Assembly (NCBI GenBank): GCA_032718475.1
Contig: JAUCBJ010006204.1
Location: 1 to 32,128, forward strand
Reading direction: 5' to 3'
Origin: Nemertoderma westbladi
Taxonomy: Eukaryota > Animalia > Xenacoelomorpha
Length of the DNA stretch: 32,128 nucleotides
This document shows, piece by piece, positions 2,594-31,692 of the stretch. The first letter of the stretch is position 1. The number at the start of each line of letters is the position of its first letter. Position numbers and translations under genes: made by a program. The notes under the pieces were generated by a model. That model was given only the letters and a program-made list of their open reading frames with translations. It had not been told where the DNA came from and ran no database searches.

Positions 2594-2695
2594 CTTCTCT
2601 TGTCGTATTGATTCAATCTCCTTCGATTGTTCATCAACACGAGCTACTAGTTCCTCTCTTTCCTTGGCTAGTTCATCTATCTTATCCTTATAAAC
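2594..2695 (-). CDS. DAAM: DAAM formin coding exon C (VYKDKIDELAKEREELVARVDEQSKEIESIRQEK)
   Basis: Acceptor ctactcgccag|GTT and donor AAG|gttagt. 102 nt, phase 0/0, heptad-like coiled coil following NEEEIK. Confidence 0.87.
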
Positions 2696-2945: not shown

Positions 2946-3103
2946 CTTAATTTCTTCTTCATTTACAAGAAGGTCGATAACGTTTTTAATGTTTAGATCA
3001 AGAGGGGCAGTATCAGGACAAGAACCATCTTCTGTTGTTAGAACTACTTGTTGAACCAAACGATCAAACAACTGCCAGTGTTTAGGTGAAGAACCGTGGT
3101 CAA
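2946..3103 (-). CDS. DAAM: DAAM formin coding exon B ((V)DHGSSPKHWQLFDRLVQQVVLTTEDGSCPDTAPLDLNIKNVIDLLVNEEEIK)
   Basis: Acceptor (c)23tttag|TT and donor AAG|gttagc. 158 nt, phase 1/0. Matches the recalled DAAM motif W-x-L-x-DR-x-x-QQ-x-V...PD..PL..NIKNV...LVNE.E.K. Confidence 0.92.
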
Positions 3104-6100
3104 CTAAAGGGGGGGGGGGGGGGGGGGGGGGACCATGGTAAATTAAAAGGGGAAGAACCATGATCAACTAAAGGGGGGGGGGAGAACCATGGTCAACTAA
3201 AGGGGGGAAGAACCATGGTCAACTAAAGGGGGGAAGAACCATGGTCAACTAAAGGGGGGAAGAACCATGGTCAACTAAAGGGGGGAAGAACCATGGTCAA
3301 CTAAAGGGGGGGGGGGGGCATGGTAAATTAAAAGGGGAAGAACCATGATCAACTAAAGGGGGGGGGAGAACCATGGTCAACTAAAGGGTGGAAGAACCAT
3401 GGTCAACTAAAGGGGGGAAGAACCATGGCCAACGAAAGGGGGGAAGAACCATGGTCAACTAAAGGGGGGGGGGAACCATGGTCAACTAAAGGGGGGAAGA
3501 AACATGGTCAACTAAAGGGTGGAAGAACCATGGTCAACTAAAGGGGGGAAGAACCATGGTCAACTAAAGGGTGGGAGAACCATGGTCAACTAAAGGGGGG
3601 AAGAACCATGGTCAACTAAAGGGTGGGAGAACCATGGTCAACTAAAGGGGGGGGGGGGGGGGGGGCATGGTAAATTAAAGGGGGAAGAACCATGGTCAAC
3701 TAAAGGGGGGGAGAACCATGGTCAACTAAAGGGGGGAAGAACCATGGTCAACTAAAGGGGGGAAGAACCATGGTCAACTAAAGGGTGGAAGAACCATGGT
3801 CAACTAAAGGGGGGGGAGAACCATGGTCAACTAAAGGGTGGAAGAACCATGGTCAACTAAAGGGGGGGAGAACCATGGTCAACTAAAGGGGGGAAGAACC
3901 ATGGTCAACTAAAGGGTGGAAGAACCATGGTCAACTAAAGTGGGGAAGAACCATGGTCAACTAAAGGGGGGAAGAACCATGGTAAATTAAAGGGGGAAGA
4001 ACCATGGCCAACGAAAGGGGGGAAGAACCATGGCCAACGAAAGGGGGGAAGAACCATGGTCAACTAAAGGGGGGAAGAACCATGGTCAACTAAAGGGGGG
4101 AAGAACCATGGTCAACTAAAGGGTGGAAGAACCATGGTCAACTAAAGGGGGGAAGAACCATGGTCAACTAAAGGGGGGAAGAACCATGGTCAACTAAAGG
4201 GTGGAAGAACCATGGTCAACTAAAGGGGGGGAGAACCATGGTCAACTAAAGGGGGGAAGAACCATGGTCAACTAAAGGGTGGAAGAACCATGGTCAACTA
4301 AAGTGGGGAAGAACCATGGTCAACTAAAGGGGGGGAGAACCATGGTCAACTAAAGTGGGGAAGAACCATGGTCAACTAAAGGGGGGAAGAACCATGGTAA
4401 ATTAAAGGGGGAAGAACCATGGCCAACGAAAGGGGGGAAGAACCATGGCCAACGAAAGGGGGGAAGAACCATGGTCAACTAAAGGGGGGAAGAACCATGG
4501 TCAACTAAAGGGGGGAAGAACCATGGTCAACTAAAGGGTGGAAGAACCATGGTCAACTAAAGGGGGGAAGAACCATGGTCAACTAAAGGGGGGAAGAACC
4601 ATGGTCAACTAAAGGGTGGAAGAACCATGGTCAACTAAAGGGGGGGAGAACCATGGTCAACTAAAGGGGGGAAGAACCATGGTCAACTAAAGGGTGGAAG
4701 AACCATGGTCAACTAAAGTGGGGAAGAACCATGGTCAACTAAAGGGGGGGAGAACCATGGTCAACTAAAGTGGGGAAGAACCATGGTCAACTAAAGAGGG
4801 GAAGAACCATGCTCAACTAAAGGGGGGGAGAACCATGGTCAACTAAAGGGGGGAAGAACAATGGTCAACTAAAGGGTGGAAGAACCATGGTCAACTAAAG
4901 TGGGGAAGAACCATGGTCAACTAAAGTGGGGAAGAACCATGGTCAACTAAAGGGTGGAAGAACCATGGTCAACTAAAGGGGGGAAGAACCATGGTCAACT
5001 AAAGGGGGGAAGAACCATGGTCAACTAAAGGGTGGAAGAACCATGGTCAACTAAAGGGGGGAAGAACCATGGTCAACTAAAGGGGGGAAGAACCATGGTC
5101 AACTAAAGGGTGGAAGAACCATGGTCAACTAAAGTGGGGAAGAACCATGTTCAACTAAAGGGGGGAAGAACCATGCTCAACTAAAGGGGGGAAGAACCAT
5201 GGTCAACTAAAGGGGGGAAGAACAATGGTCAACTAAAGGGTGGAAGAACCATGGTCAACTAAAGTGGGGAAGAACCATGGTCAACTAAAGGGTGGAAGAA
5301 CCATGGTCAACTAAAGGGGGGAAGAACCATGCTCAACTAAAGGGGGGAAGAACCATGGTCAACTAAAGGGGGGAAGAAACATGGTCAACTAAAGGGGGGA
5401 AGAACCATGGTCAACTAAAGGGGGGAAGAAACATGGTCAACTAAAGGGTGGAAGAACCATGGTCAACTAAAGGGGGGAAGAACCATGGTCAACTAAAGGG
5501 GGGAAGAACCATGGTCAACTAAAGGGGGGAAGAACCATGGTCAACTAAAGGGGGGAAGAAACATGGTCAACTAAAGGGTGGAAGAACCATGGTCAACTAA
5601 AGGGTGGAAGAACCATGGTCAACTAAAGGGGGGAAGAACCATGGTCAACTAAAGTGGGGAAGAACCATGGTCAACTAAAGGGTGGAAGAACCATGGTCAA
5701 CTAAAGGGGGGAAGAACCATGGTCAACTAAAGGGGGGAAGAACCATGGTCAACTAAAGGGGGGAAGAACCATGGTCAACTAAATGGGGGAAGAACCATGC
5801 TCAACTAAAGTGGGGAAGAACCATGGTCAACTAAAGGGTGGAAGAACCATGGTCAACTAAAGGGGGGAAGAACCATGGTCAACTAAAGGGGGGAAGAACC
5901 ATGGTCAACTAAAGGGGGGAAGAACCATGGTCAACTAAAGTGGGGAAGAACCATGGTCAACTAAAGGGTGGAAGAACCATGGTCAACTAAAGGGGGGAAG
6001 AAACATGGTCAACTAAAGGGTGGAAGAACCATGGTCAACTAAAGGGGGGAAGAACCATGGTCAACTAAAGGGGGGAAGAACCATGGTCAACTAAAGGGGG

Positions 6101-6393
6101 GAAGAACCATGGTCAACTAAAGGGGGGAAGAACCATGGTCAACTAAAGGGGGGGGGAAGAACCATGGTAAACTAAAGGGGGGGAAGAACCATGGTAAACT
6201 AAAGGGGGGAAGAACCATGGTCAACTAAAGGGGGGAAGAACCATGGTCAACTAAAGTGGGGAAGAACCATGGTCAACTAAAGGGGGGAAGAACCATGGTC
6301 AACTAAAGGGGGGAAGAACCATGGTCAACTAAAGGGGGGAAGAACCATGGTCAACTAAAGGGTGGAAGAACCATGGTCAACTAAAGAGGGGAA
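3088..6393. repeat. Minisatellite, 26-bp unit (minus strand TTGACCATGGTTCTTCCCCCCTTTAG), about 125 copies, derived from the intron/exon B junction
   Basis: CCATGG at 3187 and 3213 gives period 26. The unit is the last 10 nt of the intron plus the first 16 nt of exon B (CAC->CAT). Confidence 0.95.
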
Positions 6394-6425
6394 TAATATG
6401 TAACTCATATTTACGAGTAAGGAGA

Positions 6426-6658
6426 CAGAGCCGAGCATGGACTCCAATACAAGAATATTTGATGTATTTTATGCGACTTACATAGCCTGGATAGCCCATT
6501 CAATGCTGCCCATGCCTTCCCTACCTATTCGAAGGTCTTAACGTGATTTTCGGAACCAATCCCGTGTAGCCCACATGATTAAGCACACCATCTTAGAGCT
6601 TGTTCTCATACTATCAGACATATCCTGACGATTGTCGAAGTTAACTGTCCAAAATTTC
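6426..6658 (-). mobile_element. Degenerate RTE-clade LINE fragment (RT C-terminal part)
   Basis: Aligns by eye to about 30115-30400, e.g. gctgcccatgccttccctacctattcgaaggt vs gctgcccatgcctttcccttacgtattcgaaggt, and aagttaactgtc in both. Confidence 0.75.
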
Positions 6659-6889
6659 ACATAGGGGGTGGGGGTTTCGACGCAATCGAAATTCATCCTC
6701 TCTCCAGGGGAAAGTTGATTCAAATAACAGCTGCTTGTTCTCAAAAATTAAATTGTAGCCTGTTCTATTTGTCTTTCGTTTATTGTTTTGGTTAGAATAA
6801 CGTGCCATTGTAACCAGCTCCTTTCCCCAAATTGATGTTTTAACATTGTGACAGAATATTAATTCCCTAAGATTGATTCAATTTCAAGT

Positions 6890-6917
6890 CCCCCCCCCCC
6901 CCCCCCCCTTTTTTTTT
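6890..6917. repeat. Homopolymer run C19 followed by T9
   Basis: Directly visible. Confidence 0.9.
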
Positions 6918-6974
6918 GGACACTAGAAGCACCTTGTTCCAATTAACTGAACAAATCTGTAAACGTCTTATGTA

Positions 6975-7520
6975 CCTGTGACACCAGCAGCTCACAAGTC
7001 ACAATTGTCGATGAACCATCGTATAGTTATCGGATTGCTAGAATAATTTCCTCCGGAATCCCATATGCCAGTATGCCGAACATACGTGGTCGGGAGACTG
7101 AGGTCGAAGGCTTTAAAGAAGTCAACAAAGATTACAGCCAGATGCCTGTCTTTCTTTGTTGGTAACTCTTCGAGATTCTGTTTTATTCTATGGGACTTCA
7201 AAATCCCGGGGAGAATATTCAATATTGCTCATATCCGAAAGTCTTCACCTGACTTCCGGATCCATGATCCCAAGTAGCAGAACTCATCCACATGCTCACG
7301 CAAGCCATCCCATCAGAGGATGTCAAGGTGGATGTCATAAGGGATGTCAAGGTTCACAATTTTGGTCTTCTTGGAGTTTACAAAAAGACCAACACTAGAA
7401 GCAACCTGCTACAATGAACAGAGGAGCCTTTGGGCTCCCTCTAGTGATTCTGATAGTACCCCTACGTCATCAGCAAAGTCTAGATCAGTTAGGTACTTGC
7501 AGGATTTCCTCGACTTCTGG
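6975..7520 (-). mobile_element. Degenerate, rearranged RTE LINE fragments of the same family as 29916-31690
   Basis: Encodes KKDRHLAVIFVDFFKAFD (about 7085-7160) and the KYLTDLDFADD block (tcatcagcaaagtctagatcagttaggtacttg, identical to about 30505). It is cut at 7520 by the 47-bp array. Confidence 0.88.
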
Positions 7521-10500
7521 ACTTGCCCTGCTTACTACCCTTCACTGTTCCTTCCTGGTGCTGTCCTTGCCCTGCTCACTCCCATCCTTCACTGTTCCGT
7601 ACTGGTGCTGTCCTTGCCCTGCTCACTCCCACCCTTCACTGTTCCTTCCTGGTGCTGTCCTTGCCCTGGTCACTCCCATCCTTGACTGTTCCGTCCTGGT
7701 GCTGTCCTTGCCCTGCTCACTCCCATCCTTGACTGTTCCGTACTGGTGCTGTCCTTGCCCTGCTCACTCCCACCCTTCACTGTTCCTTCCTGGTGCTGTC
7801 CTTGCCCTGCTCACTCCCATCCTTGACTGTTCCGTACTGGTGCTGTCCTTGCCCTGCTCACTCCCACCCTTCACTGTTCCTTCCTGGTGCTGTCCTTGCC
7901 CTGCTCACTCCCACCCTTCACTGTTCCCTCATGGTGCTGTCCGTCCCTGCTCACTCTCATCCTTCACTGTTCCTTCCTGGTGCTGTCCTTGCCCTGCTCA
8001 CTCCCATCCTTCACTGTTCCGTACTGGTGCTGTCCTTGCCCTGCTCACTCCCACCCTTCACTGTTCCTTCCTGGTGCTATCCTTGCCCTGGTCACTCCCA
8101 TCCTTGACTGTTCCGTCCTGGTGCTGTCCTTGCCCTGCTCACTCCCATCCTTGACTGTTCCGTACTGGTGCTGTCCTTGCCCTGCTCACTCCCACCCTTC
8201 ACTGTTCCTTCCTGGTGCTGTCCTTGCCCTGCTCACTCCCATCCTTGACTGTTCCGTACTGGTGCTGTCCTTGCCCTGCTCACTCCCATCCTTGACTGTT
8301 CCGTACTGGTGCTGTCCTTGCCCTGCTCATTCCCACCCTTCACTGTTCCTTCCTGGTGCTGTCCTTGACCTCCTCACTCCCACCCTTGACTGTTCCGTCC
8401 TGGTGCTGTCCTTGCCCTGCTCACTCCCATCCTTGACTGTTCCGTACTGGTGCTGTCCTTGCCCTGCTCACTCCCACCCTTCACTGTTCCTTCCTGGTGC
8501 TGTCCTTGCCCTGCTCACTCCCATCTTTGACTGTTCCGTACTGGTGCTGTCCTTGCCCTGCTCACTCCCACCCTTCACTGTTCCGTCCCGGTGCTGTCAT
8601 TGCCCTGCTCGCTCCCACCCTTCACTGTTCCCTCCCGGTGCTGTCCTTGCCCTGCTCACCCCCACCCTTCACTGTTCCGTACTGGTGCTGTCCTTGCCCT
8701 GCTCACTCCCATCTTTCACTGTTCCGTCCTGGTGCTGTCCTTGCCCTGCTCGCTCCCACCCTTCACTGTTCCCTCCTGGTGCTGTCCTTGCCCTGCTCAC
8801 CCCCACCCTTCACTGTTCCGTACTGGTGCTGTCCTTGCCCTGCTCACTCCCATCTTTCACTGTTCCGTACTGGTGCTGTCCTTGCCCTGCTCACTCCCAC
8901 CCTTCACTGTTCCTTCCTGGTGCTGTCCTTGCCCTGCTCACTCCCATCCTTGACTGTTCCCTCCTGGTGCTGTCCTTGACCTGCTCACTCCCACCCTTCA
9001 CTGTTCCCTCATGGTGCTGTCCTTCCCTGCTCACTCCCATCCTTCACTGTTCCGTCCTGATGCTGTCCTTGACCTGCTTACTCCCACCCTTCACTGTTCC
9101 TTCCCGGTGCTGTCCTTGACCTGCTTACTCCCACCCTTCACTGTTCCTTCCTGGTGCTGTCCTTGCCCTGCTCACTCCCACCCTTCACTGTTCCTTCCTG
9201 GTGCTGTCCTTGCCCTGCTCACTCCCATCCTTGACTGTTCCCTCCTGGTGCTGTCCTTGACCTGCTTACTCCCACCCTTCACTGTTCCTTCCCGGTGCTG
9301 TCCTTGACCTGCTTACTCCCACCCTTTACTGTTCCTTCCTGGTGCTGTCCTTGCCCTGCTCGCTCCCACCCTTCACTGTTCCCTCCTGGTGCTGTCCTTG
9401 CCCTGCTCACCCCCACCCTTCACTGTTCCGTACTGGTGCTGTCCTTGCCCTGCTCACTCCCATCTTTCACTGTTCCGTCCTGGTGCTGTCCTTGCCCTGC
9501 TCACTCCCACCCTTCACTGTTCCGTCCTGGTGCTGTCCTTGCCCTGTTAACTTCCACCCTTTACTGTTCCGTCCTGGTGCTGTCCTTGCCCTGCTCACTC
9601 CCACCCTTCACTGTTCCTTCCTGGTGCTGTCCTTGCCCTGCTACTCCCATCCTTTACTGTTCCATCCTGGTGCTGTCCTTGCCATGCTCACACCCACCCT
9701 TCACTGTTCCTTCCTGGTGCTGTCCTTGCCCTGCTCACTCCCGCCCTTCACTGTTCCGTCCTGGTGCTGTCCTTGCCCTGTTAACTCCCACCCTTCACTG
9801 TTCCTTCCTGGTGCTGTCCTTGCCCTGCTCACTCCCACCCTTCACTGTTCCTTCCTGGTGCTGTCCTTGCCCTGCTACTCCCATCCTTTACTGTTCCATC
9901 CTGGTGCTGTCCTTGCCATGCTCACACCCACCCTTCACTGTTCCTTCCTGGTGCTGTCCTTGCCCTGCTCACTCCCACCCTTCACTGTTCCACCCTGGTG
10001 ATGTCCTTGCCCTGCTCACTACCACCCTTCACTGTTCCACCCTGGTGATGTCCTTGCCCTGCTCACTCCCACCCTTCACTGTTCCTTCCTGGTGCTGTCC
10101 TTGCCCTGCTCACTCCCACCCTTCACTGTTCCACCCTGGTGATGTCCTAGCCCTGCTCACTCCCATCCTTTACTGTTCTATCCTGGTGCTGTCCTTGCCC
10201 TGCTCACTCCCACCCTTCACTGTTCCTTCCTGGTGCTGTCCTTGCACTGCCTACTCCCACCCTTCACTGTTCAGTCCCGGTGCTGTCCTTGCCCTGCTCA
10301 CTCCCATCCTTTACTGTTCCTTCCTGGTGCTGTCCTTGCCCTCCTCACTCCCATCCTTTACTGTTCCATCCTGGTGCTGTCCTTGCCCTGCTCACTCCCA
10401 TCATTGACTGTTCCGTCCTGGTGCTGTCCTTGCCCTGCTCACTCCCACCCTTCACTGTTCCTTCCTGGTGCTGTCCTTGCCCTGCTACTCCCATCCTTCA

Positions 10501-13500
10501 CTGTTCCGTCCCGGTGCTGTCCTTGCCCTGCTCACTCCCACTCTTCACTGTTCCTTCCTGGTGCTGTCCTTGCCCTGCTCACTCCCACCCTTCACTGTTC
10601 CTTCCTGGTGCTGTCCTTGCACTGCTCACTCCCACCCTTCACTGTTCCACCCTGGTGCTGTCCTTGCCCTGCTCACTCCCACCCTTCACTGTTCCTTCCT
10701 GGTGCTGTCCTTGCCCTGCTCACTCCCATCCTTTACTGTTCCTTCCTGGTGCTGTCCTTGCCCTCCTCACTCCCATCCTTTACTGTTCCATCCTGGTGCT
10801 GTCCTTGCCCTGCTCACTCCCACCCTTCACTGTTCCTTCCTGGTGCTGTCCTTGCCCTGCTCACTCCCATCCTTTACTGTTCCTTCCTGGTGCTGTCCTT
10901 GCCCTCCTCACTCCCATCCTTTACTGTTCCATCCTGGTGCTGTCCTTGCCCTGCTCACTCCCACCCTTCACTGTTCCTTCCTGGTGCTGTCCTTGCACTG
11001 CTCACTCCCACCCTTCACTGTTCCACCCTGGTGCTGTCCTTGCCCTGCTCACTCCCACCCTTCACTGTTCCTTCCTGGTGCTGTCCTTGCCCTGCTCACT
11101 CCCATCCTTCACTGTTCCTTCCTGGTGCTGTCCTTGCCCTGCTAACTCCCATCCTTCACTGTTCCTTCCTGGTGCTGTCCTTGCCCTGCTCACTCCCACC
11201 CTTCACTGTTCCTTCATGGTGCTGTCCTTGCCCTGCTAACTCCCATCCTTCACTGTTCCTTCCTGGTGCTGTCCTTGCCCTCCTCACTCCCATCCTTTAC
11301 TGTTCTATCCTGGTGCTGTCCTTGCCCTGCTCACTCCCACCCTTCACTGTTCCTTCCTGGTGCTGTCCTTGCACTGCTCACTCCCACCCTTCACTGTTCC
11401 ACCCTGGTGCTGTCCTTGCCCTGCTCACTCCCACCCTTCACTGTTCCTTCCTGGTGCTGTCCGTGCACTGCTCACTCCCACCCTTCACTGTTCCTTCCTG
11501 GTGCTGTCCTTGCCCTGCTCACTCCCATCCTTCACTGTTCCTTCCTGGTGCTGTCCTTGCCCTGCTCACTCCCACCCTTCACTGTTCCGTCCTGGTGCTG
11601 TCCTTGCCCTTTTCCCTCCTGGTGCCTTCCTTGCCCTGCTCACTCCCACCATTCACTGTTCCACCCTGGTGCCTTCCTTGCCCTGCTTACTCCCACCCTT
11701 CACTGTTCCCTCATGGTGCTGCCCTTGCCCTGCTCACTCCCACACTTCACTGTTCCTTCCTGGTGCTGTCCTTGCCCTCCTCACTCCCATCCTTTACTGT
11801 TCCATCCTGGTGCTGTCCTTGCCCTGCTCACTCCCACACTTCACTGTTCCTTCCTGGTGCTGTCCTTGCCCTCCTCACTCCCATCCTTTACTGTTCCATC
11901 CTGGTGCTGTCCTTGCCCTGCTCACTCCCACCCTTTACTGTTCCGTCCTGGTGCTGTCCTTGCCCTACTCACTCCCATCCTTCACTGTTCCGTCATGGTG
12001 CTGTCCTTGACCTGCTCACTCCCATCCTTCACTGTTCCTTCCCGGTGCTGTCCTTGCCCTCCTCACTCCCATCCTTTACTGTTCCATCCTGGTGCTGTCC
12101 TTGCCCTGCTCACTCCCACCCTTCAATGTTCCTTCCCTGTGCTGTCCTTGCCCTGCTCACTCCCACCCTTCAATGTTCCTTCCCTGTGCTGTCCTTGCCC
12201 TGCTCGCTCCCATCCTTCACTGTTCCTTCCTGGTGCTGTCCTTGCACTGCTCACTCCCACCATTCACTGTTCCTTCCTGGTGCTGTCCTTGCCCTGCTCA
12301 CTCCCACCCTTCACTGTTCCTTCCTGGTGCTGTCCTTGCCCTGCTCACTCCCACCCTTCACTGTTCCTTCCCTGTGCTGTCCTTGCCCTGCTCACTCCCA
12401 CCCTTCACTGTTCCTTCCTGGTGCTGTCCTTGCACTGCTCACTCCCACCATTCACTGTTCCTTCCTGGTGCTGTCCTTGCCCTGCTCACTCCCACCCTTC
12501 ACTGTTCCTTCCTGGTGCTGTCCTTGCACTGCTCACTCCCATCCTTCACTGTTCCTTCCTGGTGCTGTCCTTGCCCTCCTCACTCCCATCCTTTACTGTT
12601 CCATCCTGGTGCTGTCCTTGCCCTGCTCACTCCCACCCTTCAATGTTCCTTCCCTGTGCTGTCCTTGCCCTGCTCACTCCCATCCTTCACTGTTCCTTCC
12701 TGGTGCTGTCCTTGCCCTCCTCACTCCCATCCTTTACTGTTCCATCCTGGTGCTGTCCTTGCCCTGCTCACTCCCACCCTTCAATGTTCCTTCCCTGTGC
12801 TGTCCTTGCCCTGCTCACTCCCATCCTTCACTGTTCCGTCATGGTGCTGTCCTTGCCCTGCTCACTCCCACCCTTCACTGTTCCTTCCTGGTGCTGTCCT
12901 TGCCCTCCTCACTCCCATCCTTTACTGTTCCATCCTGGTGCTGTCCTTGCCCTGCTCACTCCCACCCTTCAATGTTCCTTCCCTGTGCTGTCCTTGCCCT
13001 GCTCACTCCCATCCTTCACTGTTCCTTCCTGGTGCTGTCCTTGCCCTCCTCACTCCCATCCTTCACTGTTCCTTCCTGGTGCTGTCCTTGCCCTCCTCAC
13101 TCCCATCCTTTACTGTTCCATCCTGGTGCTGTCCTTGCCCTGCTCACTCCCACCCTTCAATGTTCCTTCCCTGTGCTGTCCTTGCCCTGCTCACTCCCAT
13201 CCTTCACTGTTCCTTCCCGGTGCTGTCCTTGCCCTCCTCACTCCCATCCTTTACTGTTCCATCCTGGTGCTGTCCTTGCCCTGCTCACTCCCACCCTTCA
13301 CTGTTCCTTCCTGGTGCTGTCCTTGCACTGCTCACTCCCACCCTTCACTGTTCCCTCCTGGTGCTGTCCTTGCCCTGCTCACTCCCACCCTTCAATGTTC
13401 CTTCCCTGTGCTGTCCTTGCCCTCCTCACTCCCATCCTTTACTGTTCCATCCTGGTGCTGTCCTTGCCCTGCTCACTTCCACCCTTCACTGTTCCTTCCT

Positions 13501-15897
13501 GGTGCTGTCCTTGCCCTACTCACTCCCATCCTTTACTGTTCCATCCTGGTGCTGTCCTTGCCCTGCTCACTCCCACCCTTCAATGTTCCTTCCCTGTGCT
13601 GTCCTTGCCCTCCTCACTCCCATCCTTTACTGTTCCATCCTGGTGCTGTCCTTGCCCTGCTCACTCCCACCCTTTACTGTTCCCTCATGGTGCTTTCCTT
13701 GCCCTGCTCACTCCCATCCTTTACTGTTCCATCCTGGTGCTGTCCTTGCCCTGCTCACTCCCACCCTTCAATGTTCCTTCCCTGTGCTGTCCTTGCCCTG
13801 CTCACTCCCACCCTTCAATGTTCCTTCCCTGTGCTGTCCTTGCCCTGCTCGCTCCCATCCTTCACTGTTCCTTCCTGGTGCTGTCCTTGCACTGCTCACT
13901 CCCACCCTTCACTGTTCCTTCCTGGTGCTGTCCTTGCACTGCTCACTCCCACCATTCACTGTTCCTTCCTGGTGCTGTCCTTGTCCTGCTCACTCCCACC
14001 CTTCACTGTTCCCCCCTGGTGCTGTCCTTGCCCTGCTCGCTCCCACCCTTCACTGTTCCTTCCTGGTGCTGTCCTTGCACTGCTCACTCCCATCCTTCAC
14101 TGTTCCTTCCTGGTGCTGTCCTTGCCCTCCTCACTCCCATCCTTCACTGTTCCTTCCTGGTGCTGTCCTTGCCCTGCTCACTCCCACCCTTCACTGTTCC
14201 ATCCTGGTGCTGTCCTTGCCCTGCTCACTCCCACCCTTCACTGTTCCTTCATGGTGCTGTCCTTGCACTGCTCACTCCCATCCTTCACTGTTCCTTCCTG
14301 GTGCTGTCCTTGCCCTCCTCACTCCCATCCTTCACTGTTCCTTCCTGGTGCTGTCCTTGCCCTGCTCACTCCCACCCTTCACTGTTCCATCCTGGTGCTG
14401 TCCTTGCCCTGCTCACTCCCACCCTTCACTGTTCCTTCATGGTGCTGTCCTTGCCCTGCTCACTCCCACCCTTCACTGTTCTTTCCTGGTGATGTCCTTG
14501 CCCTGCTCACTCCCATCCTTCACTGTTCCTTCCTGGTGCTGTCCTTGCACTGCTCACTCCCACCCTTCACTGTTCCTTCCTGGTGATGTCCTTGCCCTGC
14601 TCACTCCCATCCTTCACTGTTCCTTCCTGGTGCTGTCCTTGCCCTGCTCACTCCCATCCTTCAATGTTCCTTCCTGGTGCTGTCCTTGCACTGCTCACTC
14701 CCACCCTTCACTGTTCCTTCCTGGTGCTGTCCTTGCACTGCTCACTCCCACCATTCACTGTTCCTTCCTGGTGCTGTCCTTGTCCTGCTCACTCCCACCC
14801 TTCACTGTTCCCCCCTGGTGCTGTCCTTGCCCTGCTCGCTCCCACCCTTCACTGTTCCTTCCTGGTGCTGTCCTTGCCCTGCTCACTCCCACCCTTCACT
14901 GTTCCTTCCCTGTGCTGTCCTTGCCCTGCTCACTCCCACCCTTCACTGTTCCTTCCTGGTGCTGTCCTTGCCCTGCTCACTCCCACCCTTCACTGTTCCA
15001 CCCTGGTGCTGTCCTTGCACTGCTCACTCCCACCATTCACTGTTCCTTCCTGGTGCTGTCCTTGCCCTGCTCACTCCCACCCTTCACTGTTCCTTCCTGG
15101 TGTTGTCCTTGCCCTGCTCACTCCCACCCTTCAATGTTCCTTCCCTGTGCTGTCCTTGCCCTGCTCACTCCCACCCTTCAATGTTCCTTCCCTGTGCTGT
15201 CCTTGCCCTGCTCACTCCCACCCTTCACTGTTCTTTCCTGGTGCTGTCATTGCCCTGATCACTCCCACCCTTCACTGTTCCTTCCTGGTGCTGTCCTTGC
15301 CCTGCTCACTCCCACCCTTCAATGTTCCTTCCTGGTGCTGTCCTTGCCCTGCTCACTCCCACCCTTCACTGTTCCTTCCTGGTGCTGTCCTTGCCCTGCT
15401 CACTCCCACCCTTCAATGTTCCTTCCCTGTGCTGTCCTTGCCCTGCTCACTCCCACCCTTCACTGTTCCTTCCTGGTGCTGTCCTTGCCCTGCTCACTCC
15501 CACCCTTCAATGTTCCTTCCCTGTGCTGTCCTTGCCCTGCTCACTCCCACCCTTCACTGTTCTTTCCTGGTGCTGTCATTGCCCTGATCACTCCCACCCT
15601 TCACTGTTCCTTCCTGGTGCTGTCCTTGCCCTGCTCACTCCCACCCTTCACTGTTCCTTCCTGGTGCTGTCCTTGCCCTGCTCACTCCCACCCTTCAATG
15701 TTCCTTCCCTGTGCTGTCCTTGCCCTGCTCACTCCCACCCTTCACTGTTCTTTCCTGGTGCTGTCATTGCCCTGATCACTCCCACCCTTCACTGTTCCTT
15801 CCTGGTGCTGTCCTTGCCCTGCTTACTCCCACCCTTCACTGTTCCTTCCTGGTGCTGTCCTTGCCCTGCTCACTCCCATCCTTGACTGTTCTGTCCT
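7521..15897. repeat. Minisatellite, 47-bp unit (CTTGCCCTGCTCACTCCCACCCTTCACTGTTCCTTCCTGGTGCTGTC), about 178 copies
   Basis: Clear 47-nt period, with a strongly pyrimidine-rich + strand. The + strand consensus has no stop codon, which explains the overlapping kb-long ORFs. Confidence 0.97.
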
Positions 15898-16067
15898 TGT
15901 GATGTCTTTCGCACCAGAACTATTGCTGGATGGTGCCTCCAACTTATTCGATTACGCCGTACGAAACAGTAATTCACGTGCTAATGCCTCACATTACTGT
16001 ACATTATTTACCAACATACTTTCTTAAATTCACACTAGGCCAACTTAACATTTGTTTGTTTTCACAG

Positions 16068-16720: not shown

Positions 16721-17682
16721 CCCTACCGGTACTGATATTTTACATTAATCTCACCATGTCCTATAATTAGTTTCTTAAATTCAGGTTAGCCTACCCTAAC
16801 TGTATTAAAGGAGTTATTCTTCGACATGCAGTGTAAAGCTTCTAATAGGTTTCTTAATAATCTCAATTAATTTATTTTCTCATTAATTAATAATGCTAAT
16901 TTTATAGCTTTTGGATAAGCCTGTGGAATGTAAACTTTAAGGTTGCCATTTATACTTTGCACTCAGCTATACAGTAGTTATTAGAATATTTAATCAACGC
17001 AGTTATGTAGTGATTAATTTTTTTTATTTGTTGAAATGAACTTGTTTCGTTAGTTAAAAAAAGTACTGTTCGAAATACATGTCAAAGTAATTACCATATC
17101 ATTAATAACATTAAAATATGCATCCATGATCCATGCTCAAGCAGCCATGATATCCAAAGGTTATTAAATTTTCTAGAATATTATAATAGAAATATTATTA
17201 CATTATATCTAGAAATATTCTAAAATATTCTATCTAGAACGTTACCTAGGCCTTTTTTACTATTTCGCTTTCGCTTATAGTTATTTCACAACGGACGAAA
17301 CTTAACGATTGGGCGCTACAGTTTGTGATTCTTTTATTAAAACGATATTTATGCATTTTTAAATATTTAAACGGGAGCAGACTTTTCGGGATCGGGACCG
17401 GGATTAACACCATTGGGATCGCGTTTTTCGGAATCGGGATTGTAATTTTGTTTTAAATTTCCTTAAAGTTGTTTGGGGTTTTCGGTAACACTCACTTTAT
17501 CTTACACTTCTGAAATAGTGGTAAGATAAAGTTATATTAAAATGTATTTGCAATTGATTACTGGATGGTTTCTGACATAAAAATTCGATATAAACAAAAC
17601 ATTTCCTTTCAGCTGGAACTATTTATCGGATATTAAAGAAATTTACTTCACTATTTATAGTTCGGGATCCCGGTTCAGAAAT

Positions 17683-20600
17683 GTCGGGATCGGGACTGGG
17701 GTTACAGTTTCAACGGGATCCCGTTCCAATAAAGTCGGGATCGGGACTGGGGTTACAGTTTCACCGGGATCCCGTTCCAATAAAGTCGGGATCGGGACTG
17801 GGGTTACAGTTTCACCGGGATCCCGTTCCAATAAAGTCGGGATCGGGACTGGGGTTACAGTTTCAACGGGATCCCGTTCCAATAAAGTCGGGATCGGGAC
17901 TGGGGTTACAGTTTCACCGGGATCCCGTTCCAATAAAGTAGGGATCGGGACTGGGGTTACAGTTTCACCGGGATCCCGTTCCAATAAAGTCGGGATCGGG
18001 ACTGGGGTTACAGTTTCACCGGGATCCCGTTCCAATAAAGTCGGGATCGCGACTGGGGTTACAGTTTCACCGGGATCCCGTTCCAATAAAGTCGGGATCG
18101 CGACTGGGGTTACAGTTTCACCGGGATCCCGTTCCAATAAAGTCGGGATCGGGACTGGGGTTACAGTTTCAACTGGATCCCGTTCCAATAAAGTCGGGAT
18201 CGGGACTGGGGTTACAGTTTCACCGGGATCCCGTTCCAATAAAGTAGGGATCGGCACTGGGGTTACAGTTTCACCGGGATCCCGTTCCAATAAAGTCGGG
18301 ATCGGGACTGGGGTTACAGTTTCACCGGGATCCCGTTCCAATAAAGTAGCGATCGGCACTGGGGTTACAGTTTCAACGGGATCCCGTTCCAATAAAGTAG
18401 GGATCGGGACTGGGGTTACAGTTTCACCGGGATCCCGTTCCAATAAAGTAGGGATCGGGACTGGGGTTACAGTTTCACCAGGATCCCGTTCCAATAAAGT
18501 CGGGATCGGGACTGGGGTTACAGTTTCACCAGGATCCCGTTCCAATAAAGTCGGGATCGGGACTGGGGTTACAGTTTCACCGGGATCCCGTTCCAATAAA
18601 GTCGGGATCGGGACTGGGGTTACAGTGTCACCGGGATCCCGTTCCAATAAAGTCGGGATCGGGACTGGGGTTACAGTGTCATCGGGATCCCGTTCCAATA
18701 AAGTCGGGATCGGGACTGGGGTTACAGTTTCACCGGGATCCCGTTCCAATAAAGTCGGGATCGGGACTGGGGTTACAGTTTCACCGGGATCCCGTTCCAA
18801 TAAAGTCGGGATCGGGACTGGGGTTACAGTTTCACCGGGATCCCGTTCCAATAAAGTCGGGAGCGGGTCAGGGGTTACAGTTTCACCGGGATCCCGTTCC
18901 AATAAGATCGGGACTGGGGTTACAGTTTCACCGGGATCCCGTTCCAATAAAGTCGGGATCGGGACTGGGGTTACAGTTTCACCGGGATCCCGTTCCAATA
19001 AAGTCGGGATCGGGACTGGGGTTACAGTTTCACCGGGATCCCGTTCCAATAAAGTCGGGATCGGGACTGGGGTTACAGTTTCACCGGGATCCCGTTCCAA
19101 TAAAGTCGGGATCGGGACTGGGGTTACAGTTTCACCGGGATCCCGTTCCAATAAAGTCGGGATCGGGACTGGGGTTACAGTTTCACCGGGATCCCGTTCC
19201 AATAAAGTCGGGATCGGGACTGGGGTTACAGTTTCACCGGGATCCCGTTCCAATAAAGTAGGGATCGGGTCAGGGGTTACAGTTTCACCGGGATCCCGTT
19301 CCAATAAAGTCGGGAGCGGGTCAGGGGTTACAGTTTCACCGGGATCCCGTTCCAATAAAGTCGGGAGCGGGTCAGGGGTTACAGTTTCACCGGGATCCCG
19401 TTCCAATAAAGTCGGGATCGGGACTGGGGTTACAGTTTCACCGGGATCCCGTTCCAATAAAGTCGGGATCGGGACTGGGGTTACAGTTTCAACGGGATCC
19501 CGTTCCAATTAAGTCGGGAGCGGGTCAGGGGTTACAGTTTCACCGGGATCCCGTTCCAATAAAGTCGGGAGCGGGTCAGGGGTTACAGTTTCACCGGGAT
19601 CCCGTTCCAATAAAGTCGGGATCGGGACTGGGGTTACAGTTTCACCGGGATCCCGTTCCAATAAAGTAGGGATCGGGACTGGGGTTACAGTTTCACCGGG
19701 ATCCCGTTCCAATAAAGTCGGGATCGGGACTGGGGTTACAGTTTCACCAGGATTCCGTTCCAATAAAGTCGGGATCGGGACTGGGGTTACAGTTTCACCG
19801 GGATCCCGTTCCAATAAAGTCGGGATCGGGACTGGGGTTACAGTTTCAACGGGATCCCGTTCCAATAAAGTCGGGATCGGGACTGGGGTTACAGTTTCAC
19901 CGGGATCCCGTTCCAATAAAGTAGGGATCGGGACTGGGGTTACAGTTTCACCGGGATCCCGTTCCAATAAAGTCGGGATCGGGACTGGGGTTACAGTTTC
20001 ACCGGGATCCCGTTCCAATAAAGTCGGGATCGGGACTGGGGTTACAGTTTCACCGGGATCCCGTTCCAATAAAGTCGGGATCGGGTCAGGGGTTACAGTT
20101 TCACCGGGATCCCGTTCCAATAAAGTCGGGATCGGGACTGGGGTTACAGTGTCACCGGGATCCCGTTCCAATAAAGTCGGGATCGGGACTGGGGTTACAG
20201 TTTCGCCGGGATCCCGTTCCAATAAAGTCGGGATCGGAACTGGGGTTACAGTTTCGCCGGGATCCCGTTCCAATAAAGTCGGGATCGGAACTGGGGTTAC
20301 AGTTTCAACGGGATCCCGTTCCAATAAAGTCGGGATCGGGACTGGGGTTACAGTTTCACCGGGATCCCGTTCCAATAAAGTCGGGATCGGGACTGGGGTT
20401 ACAGTTTTACCGGGATCCCGTTCCAATAAAGTCGGGATCGGGACTGGGGTTACAGTTTCAACGGGATCCCGTTCCAATAAAGTCGGGATCGGGACTGGGG
20501 TTACAGTTTCACCGGGATCCCGTTCCAATAAAGTCGGGATCGGGACTGGGGTTACAGTTTCACCGGGATCCCGTTCCAATAAAGTCGGGATCGGGACTGG

Positions 20601-23600
20601 GGTTACAGTTTCAACGGGATCCCGTTCCAATAAAGTCGGGATCGGGACTGGGGTTACAGTTTCACCGGGATCCCGTTCCAATAAAGTCGGGATCGGGACT
20701 GGGGTTACAGTTTCACCGGGATCCCGTTCCAATAAAGTCGGGATCGGGACTGGGGTTACAGTTTCAACGGGATCCCGTTCCAATAAAGTCGGGATCGGGA
20801 CTGGGGTTACAGTTTCACCGGGATCCCGTTCCAATAAAGTCGGGATCGGGACTGGGGTTACAGTTTCACCGGGATCCCGTTCCAATAAAGTCGGGATCGG
20901 GACTGGGGTTACAGTTTCAACGGGATCCCGTTCCAATAAAGTCGGGATCGGGACTGGGGTTACAGTTTCAACGGGATCCCGTTCCAATAAAGTCGGGATC
21001 GGGACTGGGGTTACAGTTTCACCGGGATCCCGTTCCAATAAAGTCGGGATCGGGACTGGGGTTACAGTTTCACCGGGATCCCGTTCCAATAAAGTCGGGA
21101 TCGGGACTGGGGTTACAGTTTCACCGGGATCCCGTTCCAATAAAGTCGGGATCGGGTCAGGGGTTACAGTTTCACCGGGATCCCGTTCCAATAAAGTCGG
21201 GATCGGGACTGGGGTTACAGTTTCACCGGGATCCCGTTCCAATAAAGTCGGGATCGGGACTGGGGTTACAGTTTCACCGGGATCCCGTTCCAATAAAGTC
21301 GGGATCGGGACTGGGGTTACAGTTTTACCGGGATCCCGTTCCAATAAAGACGGGATTGGGACTGGGGTTACAGTTTCACCGGGATCCCGTTCCAATAAAG
21401 TCGGGATCGGGACTGGGGTTACAGTTTTACCGGGATCCCGTTCCAATAAAGACGGGATTGGGACTGGGGTTACAGTTTCACCGGGATCCCGTTCCAATAA
21501 AGTCGGGATCGGGTCAGGGGTTACAGTTTCGCCGGGATCCCGTTCCAATAAAGTCGGGATCGGAACTGGGGTTACAGTTTTACCGGGATCCCGTTCCAAT
21601 AGTCGGGATCGGGACTGGGGTTACAGTTTCACCGGGATCCCGTTCCAATAAAGTCGGGATCGGGTCAGGGGTTACAGTTTCAACGGGATCCCGTTCCAAT
21701 AAAGTCGGGATCGGGACTGGGGTTACAGTTTCACCGGGATCCCGTTCCAATAAAGTCGGGATCGGGTCAGGGGTTACAGTTTCAACGGGATCCCGTTCCA
21801 ATAAAGTCGGGATCGGGACTGGGGTTACAGTTTCACCGGGATCCCGTTCCAATAAAGTCGGGATCGGGTCAGGGGTTACAGTTTCACCGGGATCCCGTTC
21901 CAATAAAGTCGGGATCGGGACTGGGGTTACAGTTTCACCGGGATCCCGTTCCAATAAAGTCGGGATCGGGTCAGGGGTTACAGTTTCAACGGGATCCCGT
22001 TCCAATAAAGTCGGGATCGGGACTGGGGTTACAGTTTCACCGGGATCCCGTTCCAATAAAGTCGGGATCGGGACTGGGGTTACAGTTTCACCGGGATCCC
22101 GTTCCAATAAAGTCGGGATCGGGTCAGGGGTTACAGTTTCAACGGGATCCCGTTCCAATAAAGTCGGGATCGGGTCAGGGGTTACAGTTTCACCGGGATC
22201 CCGTTCCAATAAAGTCGGGATCGGGTCAGGGGTTACAGTTTCAACGGGATCCCGTTCCAATAAAGTCGGGATCGGGACTGGGGTTACAGTTTCACCGGGA
22301 TCCCGTTCCAATAAAGTCGGGATCGGGTCAGGGGTTACAGTTTCAACGGGATCCCGTTCCAATAAAGTCGGGATCGGGTCAGGGGTTACAGTTTCACCGG
22401 GATCCCGTTCCAATAAAGTCGGGATCGGGTCAGGGGTTACAGTTTCACCGGGATCCCGTTCCAATAAAGTCGGGATCGGGTCAGGGGTTACAGTTTCACC
22501 GGGATCCCGTTCCAATAAAGTCGGGATCGGGACTGGGGTTACAGTTTCACCGGGATCCCGTTCCAATAAAGTCGGGATCGGGTCAGGGGTTACAGTTTCA
22601 ACGGGATCCCGTTCCAATAAAGTCGGGATCGGGACTGGGGTTACAGTTTCACCGGGATCCCGTTCCAATAAAGTCGGGATCGGGTCAGGGGTTACAGTTT
22701 CACCGGGATCCCGTTCCAATAAAGTAGGGATCGGGACTGGGGTTACAGTTTCACCGGGATCCCGTTCCAATAAAGTCGGGATCGGGACTGGGGTTACAGT
22801 TTCACCGGGATCCCGTTCCAATAAAGTCGGGATCGGGACTGGGGTTACAGTTTCACCGGGATCCCGTTCCAATAAAGTCGGGATCGGGTCAGGGGTTACA
22901 GTTTCACCGGGATCCCGTTCCAATAAAGTCGGGATCGGGACTGGGGTTACAGTTTCACCGGGATCCCGTTCCAATAAAGTCGGGATCGGGACTGGGGTTA
23001 CAGTTTCACCGGGATCCCGTTCCAATAAAGTCGGGATCGGGACTGGGGTTACAGTTTCACCGGGATCCCGTTCCAATAAAGTCGGGATCGGGACTGGGGT
23101 TACAGTTTTACCGGGATCCCGTTCCAATAAAGACGGGATTGGGACTGGGGTTACAGTTTCACCGGGATCCCGTTCCAATAAAGTCGGGATCGGGTCAGGG
23201 GTTACAGTTTCGCCGGGATCCCGTTCCAATAAAGTCGGGATCGGGACTGGGGTTACAGTTTCACCGGGATCCCGTTCCAATAAAGTCGGGATCGGGACTG
23301 GGGTTACAGTTTCACCGGGATCCCGTTCCAATAAAGTCGGGATCGGAACTGGGGTTACAGTTTTACCGGGATCCCGTTCCAATAAAGTCGGGATCGGGAC
23401 TGGGGTTACAGTTTCATCGGGATCCCGTTCCAATAAAGTCGGGATCGGGACTGGGGTTACAGTTTCACCGGGATCCCGTTCCAATAAAGTCGGGATCGGG
23501 ACTGGGGTTACAGTTTCACCGGGATCCCGTTCCAATAAAGTCGGGATCGGGACTGGGGTTACAATTTTACCGGGATCCCATTCCAATAAAGTCGGGATCG

Positions 23601-25409
23601 GGACTGGGGTTACAGTTTCACCGGGATCCCGTTCCAATAAAGTCGGGATCGGGTCTGGGGTTACAGTTTCACCGGGATCCCGTTCCAATAAAGTCGGGAT
23701 CGGGACTGGGGTTACAGTTTCACCGGGATCCCGTTCCAATAAAGTCGGGATCGGGACTGGGGTTACAGTTTCACCGGGATCCCGTTCCAATAAAGTCGGG
23801 ATCGGGACTGGGGTTACAATTTTACCGGGATCCCGTTCCAATAAAGTCGGGATCGGGACTGGGGTTACAGTTTCAACGGGATCCCGTTCCAATAAAGTCG
23901 GGATCGGGACTGGGGTTACAGTTTCACCGGGATCCCGTTCCAATAAAGTCGGGATCGGGTCTGGGGTTACAGTTTTACCGGGATCCCGTTCCAATAAAGT
24001 CGGGATAGGGACTGGGGTTACAGTTTCACCGGGATCCCGTTCCAATAAAGTCGGGATCGGGACTGGGGTTACAGTTTCACCGGGATCCCGTTCCAATAAA
24101 GTCGGGATCGGGTCTGGGGTTACAGTTTCACCGGGATCCCGTTCCAATAAAGTCGGGATCGGGACTGGGGTTACAGTTTCACCGGGATCCCGTTCCAATA
24201 AAGTCGGGATCGGGTCTGGGGTTACAGTTTTACCGGGATCCCGTTCCAATAAAGTCGGGATAGGGACTGGGGTTACAGTTTCACCGGGATCCCGTTCCAA
24301 TAAAGTCGGGATCGGGACTGGGGTTACAGTTTCACCGGGATCCCGTTCCAATAAAGTCGGGATCGGGTCAGGGGTTACAGTTTCACCGGGATCCCGTTCC
24401 AATAAAGTCGGGATCGGGACTGGGGTTACAGTTTCACCGGGATCCCGTTCCAATAAAGTCGGGATCGGGTCAGGGGTTACAGTTTTACCGGGATCCCGTT
24501 CCAATAAAGTCGGGATCGGGACTGGGGTTACAGTTTTACCGGGATCCCGTTCCAATAAAGTCGGGATCGGGACTGGGGTTACAGTTTCACCGGGATCCCG
24601 TTCCAATAAAGTCGGGATCGGGTCAGGGGTTACAGTTTCACCGGGATCCCGTTCCAATAAAGTCGGGATCGGGACTGGGGTTACAGTTTCACCGGGATCC
24701 CGTTCCAATAAAGTCGGGATCGGGACTGGGGTTACAGTTTCACCGGGATCCCGTTCCAATAAAGTCGGGATCGGGACTGGGGTTACAGTTTCACCGGGAT
24801 CCCGTTCCAATAAAGTCGGGATCGGGTCAGGGGTTACAGTTTCACCGGGATCCCGTTCCAATAGTCGGGATCGGGACTGGGGTTACAGTTTCACCGGGAT
24901 CCCGTTCCAATAAAGTCGGGATCGGGTCAGGGGTTACAGTTTCACCGGGATCCCGTTCCAATAAAGTCGGGATCGGGACTGGGGTTACAGTTTCACCGGG
25001 ATCCCGTTCCAATAGTCGGGATCGGGACTGGGGTTACAGTTTCACCGGGATCCCGTTCCAATAAAGTCGGGATCGGGACTGGGGTTACAGTTTCACCGGG
25101 ATCCCGTTCCAATAAAGTCGGGATCGGGACTGGGGTTACAGTTTTACCGGGATCCCGTTCCAATAAAGTCGGGATCGGGTCAGGGGTTACAGTTTTACCG
25201 GGATCCCGTTCCAATAAAGTCGGGATCGGGTCAGGGGTTACAGTTTTACCGGGATCCCGTTCCAATAAAGTCGGGATCGGGACTGGGGTTACAGTTTTAC
25301 CGGGATCCCGTTCCAATAAAGTCGGGATCGGGTCAGGGGTTACAGTTTTACCGGGATCCCGTTCCAATAAAGTCGGGATCGGGACTGGGGTTACAGTTTT
25401 ACCGGGATC
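17683..25409. repeat. Minisatellite, 51-bp unit (GTCGGGATCGGGACTGGGGTTACAGTTTCACCGGGATCCCGTTCCAATAAA), about 151 copies
   Basis: 51-nt period, very homogeneous. Each unit contains the palindrome CGGGATCCCG. 49-bp variant units occur near 21600, 24862 and 25013, and a 45-bp unit near 18905. Confidence 0.97.
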
Positions 25410-29503: not shown

Positions 29504-29915
29504 TTTTGCCGTCTACGGGGAAACTGGGGCTGTGCCGCTTTCAGTTTCACGAAAGCTGACAATTGTAAAATTTTGGGTAAGAACTTTGACTCTCCCGGAG
29601 ACGAGACTGACTAAACGTATGTATCAGGTACTTTACGAGGATGCACTGCAGGGGTCAGCGACAAACTGGGTTTCAATGGTAAGGGATGTATTAAATGGCC
29701 TGGGCCAAAGTTGGGCATGGGAGTCTCAAAATGTTGGGGATGCCAAATTATTCTTAAATAACGTAAGGGTAGTTTTAATGGATCAATTCATACAAGGGTG
29801 GTGGGCTGATATATCAAACTCTTCCAAAGGACAATATTACGTTAAAAATAAATTCGGAACAGAAGAATATCTACATTTATTAAAGGACAATAATGGCTTA
29901 CGTCAAACCCTCGCA
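29504..29915 (+). mobile_element. C-terminal ORF fragment of a further non-LTR retrotransposon (RTEX/L2-like; clade uncertain)
   Basis: AVYGETGAVPL...IVKFW...NWVSMVRDVL..LG...W...DQFIQGW..DI..SSK..YY...EEYL is a motif string typical of post-RT regions of invertebrate LINEs. Confidence 0.7.
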
Positions 29916-31690: not shown

Positions 31691-31692
31691 GT

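What the first reader, a model, noticed from the sequence alone, without database searches (positions are those of the whole stretch)
3088..6393. A 3.3-kb satellite made of about 125 complete copies of the host gene's own 3' splice site
Seen: on the transcribed (minus) strand the unit TTGACCATGGTTCTTCCCCCCTTTAG is the exon B junction itself. Each unit has a branch-point-like TTGAC (yUnAy, A at -23), a pyrimidine tract (TTCTTCCCCCCTTT) and TAG. The intron is phase 1 and 26 = 2 + 24, so splicing to any canonical upstream copy reads G|TT GAC CAT GGT TCT TCC CCC CTT TAG (VDHGSSPL*): the next acceptor is the stop. Only the last AG (3104-3105) yields intact protein. Inference: the array could be a decoy or poison acceptor field coupling repeat number to NMD and DAAM dosage, a U2AF/SF1 sink, or neutral sequence silenced by exon definition.
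Basis: partly seen in the sequence, partly recalled or inferred. Interest (0 to 1): 0.85.

Follow-up and report, generated by a model that had tools for sequence, protein, structure and literature searches.

The report
Splice-acceptor mirage repeat in DAAM intron
In an animal's DAAM (actin-building formin) gene, a 26-base piece spanning the end of an intron and the start of the next exon is repeated 125 times, and only the last splice signal gives an unbroken protein frame, so this is likely a harmless, oversized example of a repeat type already described in lancelets as a "mirage".

Summary
At 3104-6380 (minus strand) lie 125 units of a 26-bp repeat: 16 nt of exon B start plus 10 nt of intron end of a DAAM formin gene. 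115 of 125 units end in AG. All 115 upstream AG junctions give a premature stop; only the AG at 3104-3105 gives a frame collinear with homologues.

This is the 'mirage' minisatellite type described in lancelets (PMC3087553). The scan noted at least 12 such arrays on other DNA of this genome, most larger (unchecked notes).

The poison or sink reading is unsupported: the in-frame stop is arithmetic, the branch-like motif is exon-derived and common, and 70% of the intron is tandem arrays, mostly unrelated to splice sites.

Two additions. A dead copy of the acceptor and exon B start sits 110 nt behind the donor and is present in a second sample. The true acceptor is preceded by an AG-to-AA unit and a C23 tract; the AG-to-AA change recurs four times upstream.

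No RNA covering the junction was examined, so use of the last AG is inferred.

The parts
31849..32033 (-). DAAM exon A (FH3 domain), ends in phase 1 at a GTAAG donor
   Evidence: Pfam Drf_FH3 E 6.6e-15, profile 92-151; best named homologues are DAAM1/2; boundaries
31701..31742 (-). Dead copy of the acceptor (AG 31739-31740, 110 nt after the donor) plus first ~38 nt of exon B; would read VDHFFFT*
   Evidence: 42 nt, 85.7% identical to 3107-3067, E 1.6e-7, 0 of 2000 shuffles as good; translation; contigs of a second sample cover 31640-32128 with 0 differences
29900..31200 (-). Decayed LINE-like reverse-transcriptase element; a second copy at about 27250-28410 (limits approximate)
   Evidence: Pfam RVT_1 E 4.8e-12 for 30500-30964; both copies share similarity with the remnant at 6422-7520
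26495..27189 (.). 51-bp tandem array, 13.7 copies, no exon similarity
17663..25409 (.). 51-bp tandem array, 152 copies, no exon similarity
7522..15906 (.). 47-bp tandem array, 179 copies, no exon similarity; 157 GTRAG words on the transcribed strand
6422..7520 (-). Rearranged remnant of the same LINE-like family (72-84% identical pieces)
6381..6421 (-). Unique U-rich acceptor at the array's 5' edge (10 U, 6 C in -23..-4); likely founder of the intron part of the unit
   Evidence: 3-nt TTC microhomology with exon B positions 14-16 seen in the sequence
3104..6380 (-). Mirage array: 125 units of 26 bp (16 nt exon B start + 10 nt intron end), 115 ending in AG
3642..3699 (-). Internal copy of the AG-to-AA unit plus long C tract; candidate leak acceptor at 3641 (696-nt exon)
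3301..3352 (-). Internal copy of the AG-to-AA unit plus long C tract; best candidate leak acceptor at 3300 (355-nt exon)
3104..3167 (-). Terminal cassette: AG-to-AA unit giving TTAAT at -40, then C23 and TTTAG; AG 3104-3105 is the only frame-preserving acceptor
   Evidence: one contig covers 3097-3204 without a difference in run X1, which may be the source of the window
2946..3103 (-). DAAM exon B, 158 nt, end of the FH3 domain; His codon CAC where all 111 26-nt units have CAT
   Evidence: Pfam Drf_FH3 155-186, E 0.0066, below the curated cut-off; collinear with homologues
2594..2695 (-). DAAM exon C (predicted), 102 nt
   Evidence: AG/GT borders; frame open through exons A-D, 175 aa
1940..2020 (-). 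DAAM exon D (predicted), 81 nt
   Evidence: AG/GT borders; frame open through exons A-D

Best explanation
This is a mirage-type minisatellite: a 26-bp piece spanning the intron/exon B border of a DAAM gene is repeated 125 times, only the last AG keeps the reading frame, and the spliceosome likely ignores the 115 upstream AGs, so the array is likely near-neutral intron filler. Shown: the unit's make-up, the counts, the frame logic, the dead copy near the donor and the three unrelated arrays in the same intron. Inferred origin: a small duplication at a 3-nt TTC microhomology, then expansion by slippage or unequal exchange, including one 16-unit block duplication, in a genome prone to local tandem expansion. 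Inferred splicing: the acceptor is chosen by pairing across exon B with the donor at 2945, which favours the nearest AG (158-nt exon); only 3 decoys give exons of 300 nt or less. The AG-free 62 nt with an open TTAAT would help the last site, and any leak would meet a premature stop and likely be degraded, which makes the array cheap to carry.
For: Unit = exon start + intron end; 115 of 115 upstream AG junctions stop, 1 open. In 49 of 55 homologues with both exons aligned the spacing at the junction is within one residue of the window's last-AG junction (25 equal, 20 one shorter, 4 one longer). Exons A-D are an open frame of 175 aa, and exons A and B are each covered by one contig per covering run at 85% likeness, so no intact close paralogue was seen. 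20,117 of 28,745 intron nt are tandem arrays and the other three units match no exon. Units 62-78 recur as units 78-94. Exon sizes by acceptor are 158, 222, 251, 277, 303 nt and up. PMC3087553 (passages) defines mirages and reports no interference with splicing; PMC3902484 (passage) agrees; PMC2630376 (passage) says the distal site wins in the human CBS 68-bp junction duplication.
Against: No RNA covering the junction was examined, so use of the last AG is not shown. The true acceptor has the poorest U tract of all acceptors compared (2 U, 18 C, against 7-11 U), and the dead copy 110 nt from the donor looks like a good short-intron acceptor (10 U, yUnAy at -17); how the donor passes it over is unexplained. 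All 10 AG-less units lie in the 3' 42% of the array, which could reflect selection. The roughly 300-nt limit of exon definition is recalled from vertebrate work, comes from no call, and may not hold in this animal.
Confidence: 0.7

Rival explanations
1. Selected repair of the array's end: the array was harmful until an AG-to-AA change removed the nearest competitor and created an exposed branch point, and the C tract lengthened (perhaps read by poly(C)-binding proteins). The last two units would then be a functional signal that marks the true acceptor. This can hold together with a neutral array body.
For: True AG has 62 AG-free nt against 24 in 99 of 116 acceptors. Its -40 adenosine is predicted open (0.70-0.74) while the decoy median is 0.04-0.05; only 4 of 115 decoys reach 0.5. 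Divergence from the modal unit by fifths is 0.64, 0.68, 0.76, 1.0, 2.68. PMC4797308 (abstract) shows C-rich tracts enhancing acceptors through alphaCP/PCBP in mammals; PMC7784297 (passages) links an open branch site to the chosen 3' site in plants.
Against: An AG-to-AA unit with an open adenosine recurs at four internal acceptors (4375, 3960, 3641, 3300), so it cannot alone mark the last AG. Burial of the -23 adenosine is not special: 233 of 400 middle-shuffled units bury it to 0.1 or less, and it stays buried (0.03) when position 8 is as in exon B. The AG losses come from two kinds of change spread by duplication, so they are few independent events. Divergent array edges are a general feature of mirages (PMC3087553).
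Confidence: 0.13
2. Poison or decoy field: part of the splicing goes to array AGs, gives VDHGSSPL* and NMD, so repeat number tunes DAAM dosage; or the array RNA soaks up U2AF/SF1.
For: 115 of 115 decoy junctions give a stop more than 55 nt (at least 154) before the next junction. 108 of 115 decoys have a yUnAy adenosine at -15..-45. Summed contig depth at the array end relative to unique sequence differs between samples (X1 about 56-62, X2 about 4-5), a weak hint of length variation.
Against: A stop within a few units is almost unavoidable in a TAG-ended repeat whose length is not a multiple of three. The branch-like motif is exonic in origin and common (58 of 115 windows) and predicted paired in most units. 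The same intron holds three arrays without acceptor content. The tool states that summed depth is no copy number, and X3 of the same sample as X2 gives 0.1-0.3. Published mirages gave no aberrant mRNA.
Confidence: 0.08
3. The array exists but its length or internal order is partly an assembly product.
For: No listed contig spans the array; neither X1 contig at the exon B junction has 31 letters on both sides (1800-3126 and 3097-3204). Relative depth of array contigs is much lower in the second sample.
Against: 31 distinct unit variants with a 16-unit higher-order duplication and a divergence gradient. The two X1 contigs overlap and tile 1800-3204 without a difference, and array-unit contigs occur in a second study (X2, 3178-3250, 0-2 differences).
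Confidence: 0.05
4. The gene is damaged: the donor mostly uses the near dead copy or array AGs and this DAAM copy is weakly expressed or decaying.
For: A good-looking acceptor 110 nt from the donor leads into a frameshifted copy, with a GTGAG donor-like word at 31611 behind it.
Against: Exons A-D keep an open frame with canonical borders. The second sample shows no listed substitution in exon A or in exons B-D where covered. No second copy of exon A or B was seen at 85% likeness (records can be filtered out).
Confidence: 0.04

Closest known systems
Amphioxus 'mirage' minisatellites (Adh3, globins BflGb6 and BflGb9, troponin C, PGBD5). Seen: passages of PMC3087553 and PMC3902484; the original Adh3 paper was not seen.
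   Same: [quoted passage not shown]
   Different: 125 units against 3 and 6 in the two BflGb6 haplotypes; a further dispersed dead copy 28.6 kb upstream; remodelled last two units; normal splicing shown by RT-PCR there, not tested here; host here not identified.
[quoted passage not shown] Seen: introduction passage of PMC2630376; Romano et al. 2002 seen only as a reference title.
   Same: Duplicated intron/exon junction; the distal site is strongly favoured and normal mRNA results.
   Different: Two copies against 116 AG junctions plus a dispersed one; mechanism tested there, not here.
Human F7 intron 7 37-bp VNTR. Seen: abstract of PMC1557585.
   Same: Minisatellite whose edge unit spans an exon-intron border, giving many identical but silent pseudo-sites; the site next to the exon is used.
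   Different: Donor side rather than acceptor side; far fewer than 125 units is my recollection, not stated in the abstract.
Other junction arrays noted by this scan in the same genome (aconitase, mitoguardin, TFG, dynein, Nup210, beta-catenin, carbonic anhydrase, CUL3; donor type in lysyl-tRNA synthetase, MPDZ, CLUAP1, TFCP2). Unchecked AI notes.
   Same: Same architecture; several notes say an assembled transcript joins to the exon-adjacent site.
   Different: By their titles most are larger (about 150-840 copies).

Membership tests
Mirage minisatellite (PMC3087553) | Head-to-tail minisatellite-like array inside a gene | tested here: met
   125 units, period 26, 92% matches
Mirage minisatellite (PMC3087553) | Unit spans the host gene's own exon-intron border | tested here: met
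   16 nt of exon B start (15 of 16 identical) + 10 nt of intron end (9 of 10 identical to the 5' flank acceptor); exon identity
Mirage minisatellite (PMC3087553) | Many but not all units keep the AG/GT signal | tested here: met
   115 of 125 units end in AG
Mirage minisatellite (PMC3087553) | Concerted evolution with edges excluded from homogenisation | tested here: met
   Mean distance to the modal unit 0.64-1.0 in the first four fifths, 2.68 in the last; met at the 3' edge only
Mirage minisatellite (PMC3087553) | Regular splicing of the mRNA is not disturbed | not tested
   No junction RNA examined; frame and homologue collinearity only
Mirage minisatellite (PMC3087553) | Length instability between haplotypes or cells | tested here: inconclusive
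   Depth ratios differ between runs but summed contig depth is no copy number
Regulated poison acceptor (AS-NMD) | Alternative site gives a premature stop more than 55 nt before the next junction | tested here: met
   115 of 115; the 55-nt rule is recalled
Regulated poison acceptor (AS-NMD) | The alternative site is really used, and more so under NMD block | not testable with these tools
   Needs raw RNA reads with and without NMD inhibition
Recursive-splicing ladder | Each acceptor is followed at once by a donor (AG|GT) | tested here: not met
   Junctions read AG|TT; no GTRAG word in the array

The most novel reading that the evidence does not exclude
A gene survived more than a hundred copies of its own 3' splice site by converting a decoy AG into a branch point (AG to AA, giving an exposed TTAAT) in front of a lengthened poly(C) tract, read through a poly(C)-binding route rather than a U-rich tract. 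Later re-duplication of this cassette into the array created four leak acceptors, so that array length and make-up set a small NMD-bound loss of DAAM mRNA that differs between individuals. With the dead copy beside the donor, the locus would record two nested rounds of acceptor sliding that grew a 110-nt intron to 28.7 kb.
Probability: 0.1. Interest if true: 0.65.

Novelty: new member of a known kind. Interest (0 to 1): 0.3.

Why it matters
By itself this locus adds one more large member to a known repeat type. Its value is as a natural test of 3' splice-site choice: 115 near-identical decoys, one diagnostic base (CAC in the exon, CAT in all 111 26-nt units) that lets short reads tell the true junction from leaks, and four predicted leak sites. 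The larger open question belongs to the genome, not this window: if the scan's notes hold, this animal amplifies exon borders into kb-scale arrays in many genes. Three searches of the paper library on tandem repeats at splice sites returned only single-gene reports for this type; most subscription papers are not in that library.

Tried and rejected
No whole genome is held, so no genome-wide count of the unit or of paralogues was possible.

Sequencing runs for 1900-3110: 6 listed, no RNA holder listed; this is no evidence on expression. Run X4 held 0.16 of the words, near the roughly 0.21 that exons B-D make up, and showed little repeat depth, so it may be an RNA run. I laid it only on the exon A stretch, where nothing lay on exon A, and did not lay it on exons B-D; this test was missed. 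X5 lay only on short repeats and the poly(G) run.

No protein identical to exon A or spanning the A/B junction turned up in three homologue searches and one representative search (best identity 69%), so there is no transcript-derived support, and the host is not placed beyond 'animal'.

Homology between the intron end at 31743-31788 and the array's 5' flank (6385-6427) was tested and not supported: 817 of 5000 shuffles scored as well, and unrelated intron ends of the gene scored higher (13-14 against 10; also 721 of 2000). A target-site duplication by the LINE is therefore not claimed.

Structural masking as a designed feature was rejected. Eight units fold at z = -4.05 against dinucleotide shuffles, but that control destroys periodicity. 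Against tandem shuffled units the fold is only modestly stronger (8 of 400 and 23 of 400 as stable) and burial of the -23 adenosine is common (233 of 400). Accessibility of the AG itself does not single out the true site (23 and 102 of 115 decoys as open).

Rfam: 0 matches at gathering score in 2900-7600. Recursive splicing rejected (AG|TT junctions). The 29-, 47- and 51-bp units match no exon in the window. Earlier-findings look-ups near this place, by sequence and for palindrome/branch-point words returned nothing. Paper searches were seen as listings only, apart from PMC7784297. No supplementary files were read; the BflGb6 alignment in the supplement of PMC3087553 may bear on how terminal units differ in lancelets.

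Full report
Host gene. The minus strand carries four exons of a DAAM formin: A 32033-31849, B 3103-2946, C 2695-2594, D 2020-1940, with AG/GT borders and an open frame of 175 aa when joined. Exon A matches Pfam Drf_FH3 positions 92-151 (E 6.6e-15) and exon B positions 155-186 (E 0.0066, below the curated cut-off). Named homologues are DAAM1/2 of arthropods and echinoderms at 54-69% identity; the host is not placed further. The A-B intron is phase 1 and 28,745 nt long. Its position is likely ancient: many short homologue ORFs lose similarity right after the same LLP and go on with RK, CK, RE or CE, as read-through into a phase-1 donor would give (inference). Of 120 homologues, 55 aligned to both exons; the spacing at the junction equals the window's last-AG junction in 25, is one residue shorter in 20, one longer in 4 and different in 6.

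The array. It spans 6380-3104 with 125 units. A unit is 16 nt of exon B start (15 of 16 identical; the difference is the third base of the His codon) plus 10 nt of intron end (9 of 10 identical to the unique acceptor at the array's 5' edge). A TTC triplet stands at both break points, which fits birth by a small microhomology-guided duplication (inference). 45 units are modal, 115 end in AG and 10 do not; units 62-78 recur as units 78-94. Of 116 AG junctions, 115 meet a stop before the end of exon B, at least 154 nt before the next junction, and only 3103 is open.

The true acceptor differs from the units. The second-last unit has AA for AG, the last has a C23 tract, and the last AG has 62 AG-free nt before it against 24 for 99 of 116 acceptors. 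Its yUnAy adenosines are at -40 and -36. It has the fewest U of the acceptors compared (2, against 7 in the modal unit and 7-11 at exons A, C and D). In local folding its -40 adenosine is open (0.70-0.74), the decoy median is 0.04-0.05, and 4 of 115 decoys reach 0.5 (4375, 3960, 3641, 3300), all behind an AG-to-AA unit. A control weakens this: 233 of 400 middle-shuffled units also bury the -23 adenosine, and it stays buried when position 8 is as in exon B. Masking is thus a by-product at most, and the AG-to-AA feature is not unique to the last site. What is unique to the last AG is the intact exon and a donor 158 nt away; other acceptors give 222, 251, 277, 303 nt and up. Choice by exon definition is my inference; the size limit of about 300 nt is recalled from vertebrate work.

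110 nt behind the exon A donor lies a decayed copy of TTAG plus the first ~38 nt of exon B (31742-31701; 42 nt, 85.7%, E 1.6e-7; 0 of 2000 shuffles). It would read VDHFFFT*. Contigs of a second sample cover 31640-32128 without a difference (X2, X3), so it is not peculiar to this assembly. The simplest history is that the intron was once about 110 nt, the border was duplicated, the downstream copy stayed functional, and LINE-like pieces (RVT_1) and satellites piled up between the copies. The order of events is inferred. Homology of the two intron ends was tested and not supported (817 of 5000 shuffles), so only the exon-side copy is established, and the near copy could also be a later stray duplicate.

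Context. 20,117 of 28,745 intron bases are tandem arrays; the 47- and 51-bp units, and the 29-bp array after exon D, match no exon. Local tandem expansion is thus general here and needs no splicing function.

Reality of the array. In run X1, which may be the source of the window, two overlapping contigs tile 1800-3204 without a difference, though neither has 31 letters on both sides of the junction. In X2, from another study, one contig covers 1800-3086 and separate short contigs match array units at 3178-3250 with 0-2 differences. The unit therefore exists in two studies; its link to exon B in the second and the total length are not shown. Summed depth at the array end over unique depth is 56-62 in X1, 4-5 in X2 and 0.1-0.3 in X3. 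The tool says such sums are no copy number, and X2 and X3 are one sample, so this is only a hint.

Comparison with what is known. [quoted passage not shown] PMC3902484 (one passage) says the same for Adh, troponin C and PGBD5. PMC2630376 (passage) reports that the distal site wins in the CBS 68-bp junction duplication, and PMC1557585 (abstract) the donor-side analogue in F7. The four structural features of mirages are met here; undisturbed splicing was not tested and length instability is inconclusive. The scan's notes list 12 distinct junction-array loci on other pieces of this genome among the 16 rows shown; I took the label 'mirage' from them and checked it in the papers, but did not check their loci.

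Verdict. Real, correctly described, and a new member of a known kind. It most likely works as tolerated intron filler (0.70). A selected role for the last two units (0.13) and a dosage-tuning poison field (0.08) remain open for want of junction RNA. Interest 0.3: many larger cases were already noted in this genome; the dead near copy and the four predicted leak sites make this one a convenient test locus.

Noticed in passing
window 31701-31742 (-): Decayed copy of the acceptor and exon B start 110 nt after the exon A donor; it shares CAT with the array units where exon B has CAC. A GTGAG donor-like word follows at 31611.
   Followed up: yes
window 31455-31669: Pieces of a very high-copy short repeat (summed contig depth up to 500,000 against about 27 for unique sequence in X2) begin just behind the dead copy.
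   Followed up: no
window 7522-15906: 47-bp array, 179 copies, with 157 GTRAG donor-like words on the transcribed strand, directly upstream of the LINE remnant and the acceptor array; no exon match in the window.
   Followed up: partly
window 17663-25409 and 26495-27189: Two arrays of one 51-bp unit with a 10-bp palindrome; part of the unit recurs at 17386-17406 and 26116-26135, perhaps the end of a DNA transposon (guess).
   Followed up: partly
window 764-1751: 29-bp array, 35 copies, in the intron after exon D; no exon match.
   Followed up: partly
array units of 26, 51, 29 and 47 bp: Longest palindromes are 8, 10, 6 and 0 bp; shuffled units reach as long in 31, 55, 408 and 1000 of 1000. A weak hint that self-complementary units expand more readily.
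   Followed up: partly
window 3086-3087: The X2 contig stops at 3086, one base before the place where exon B and the array units diverge; this could be an allele or a graph branch.
   Followed up: no
window 27250-31200: Two same-strand decayed LINE-like copies with an opposite-strand RT-like stretch between them (about 28430-29400, by eye); the second copy ends in a short TAG run next to the 51-bp array.
   Followed up: partly
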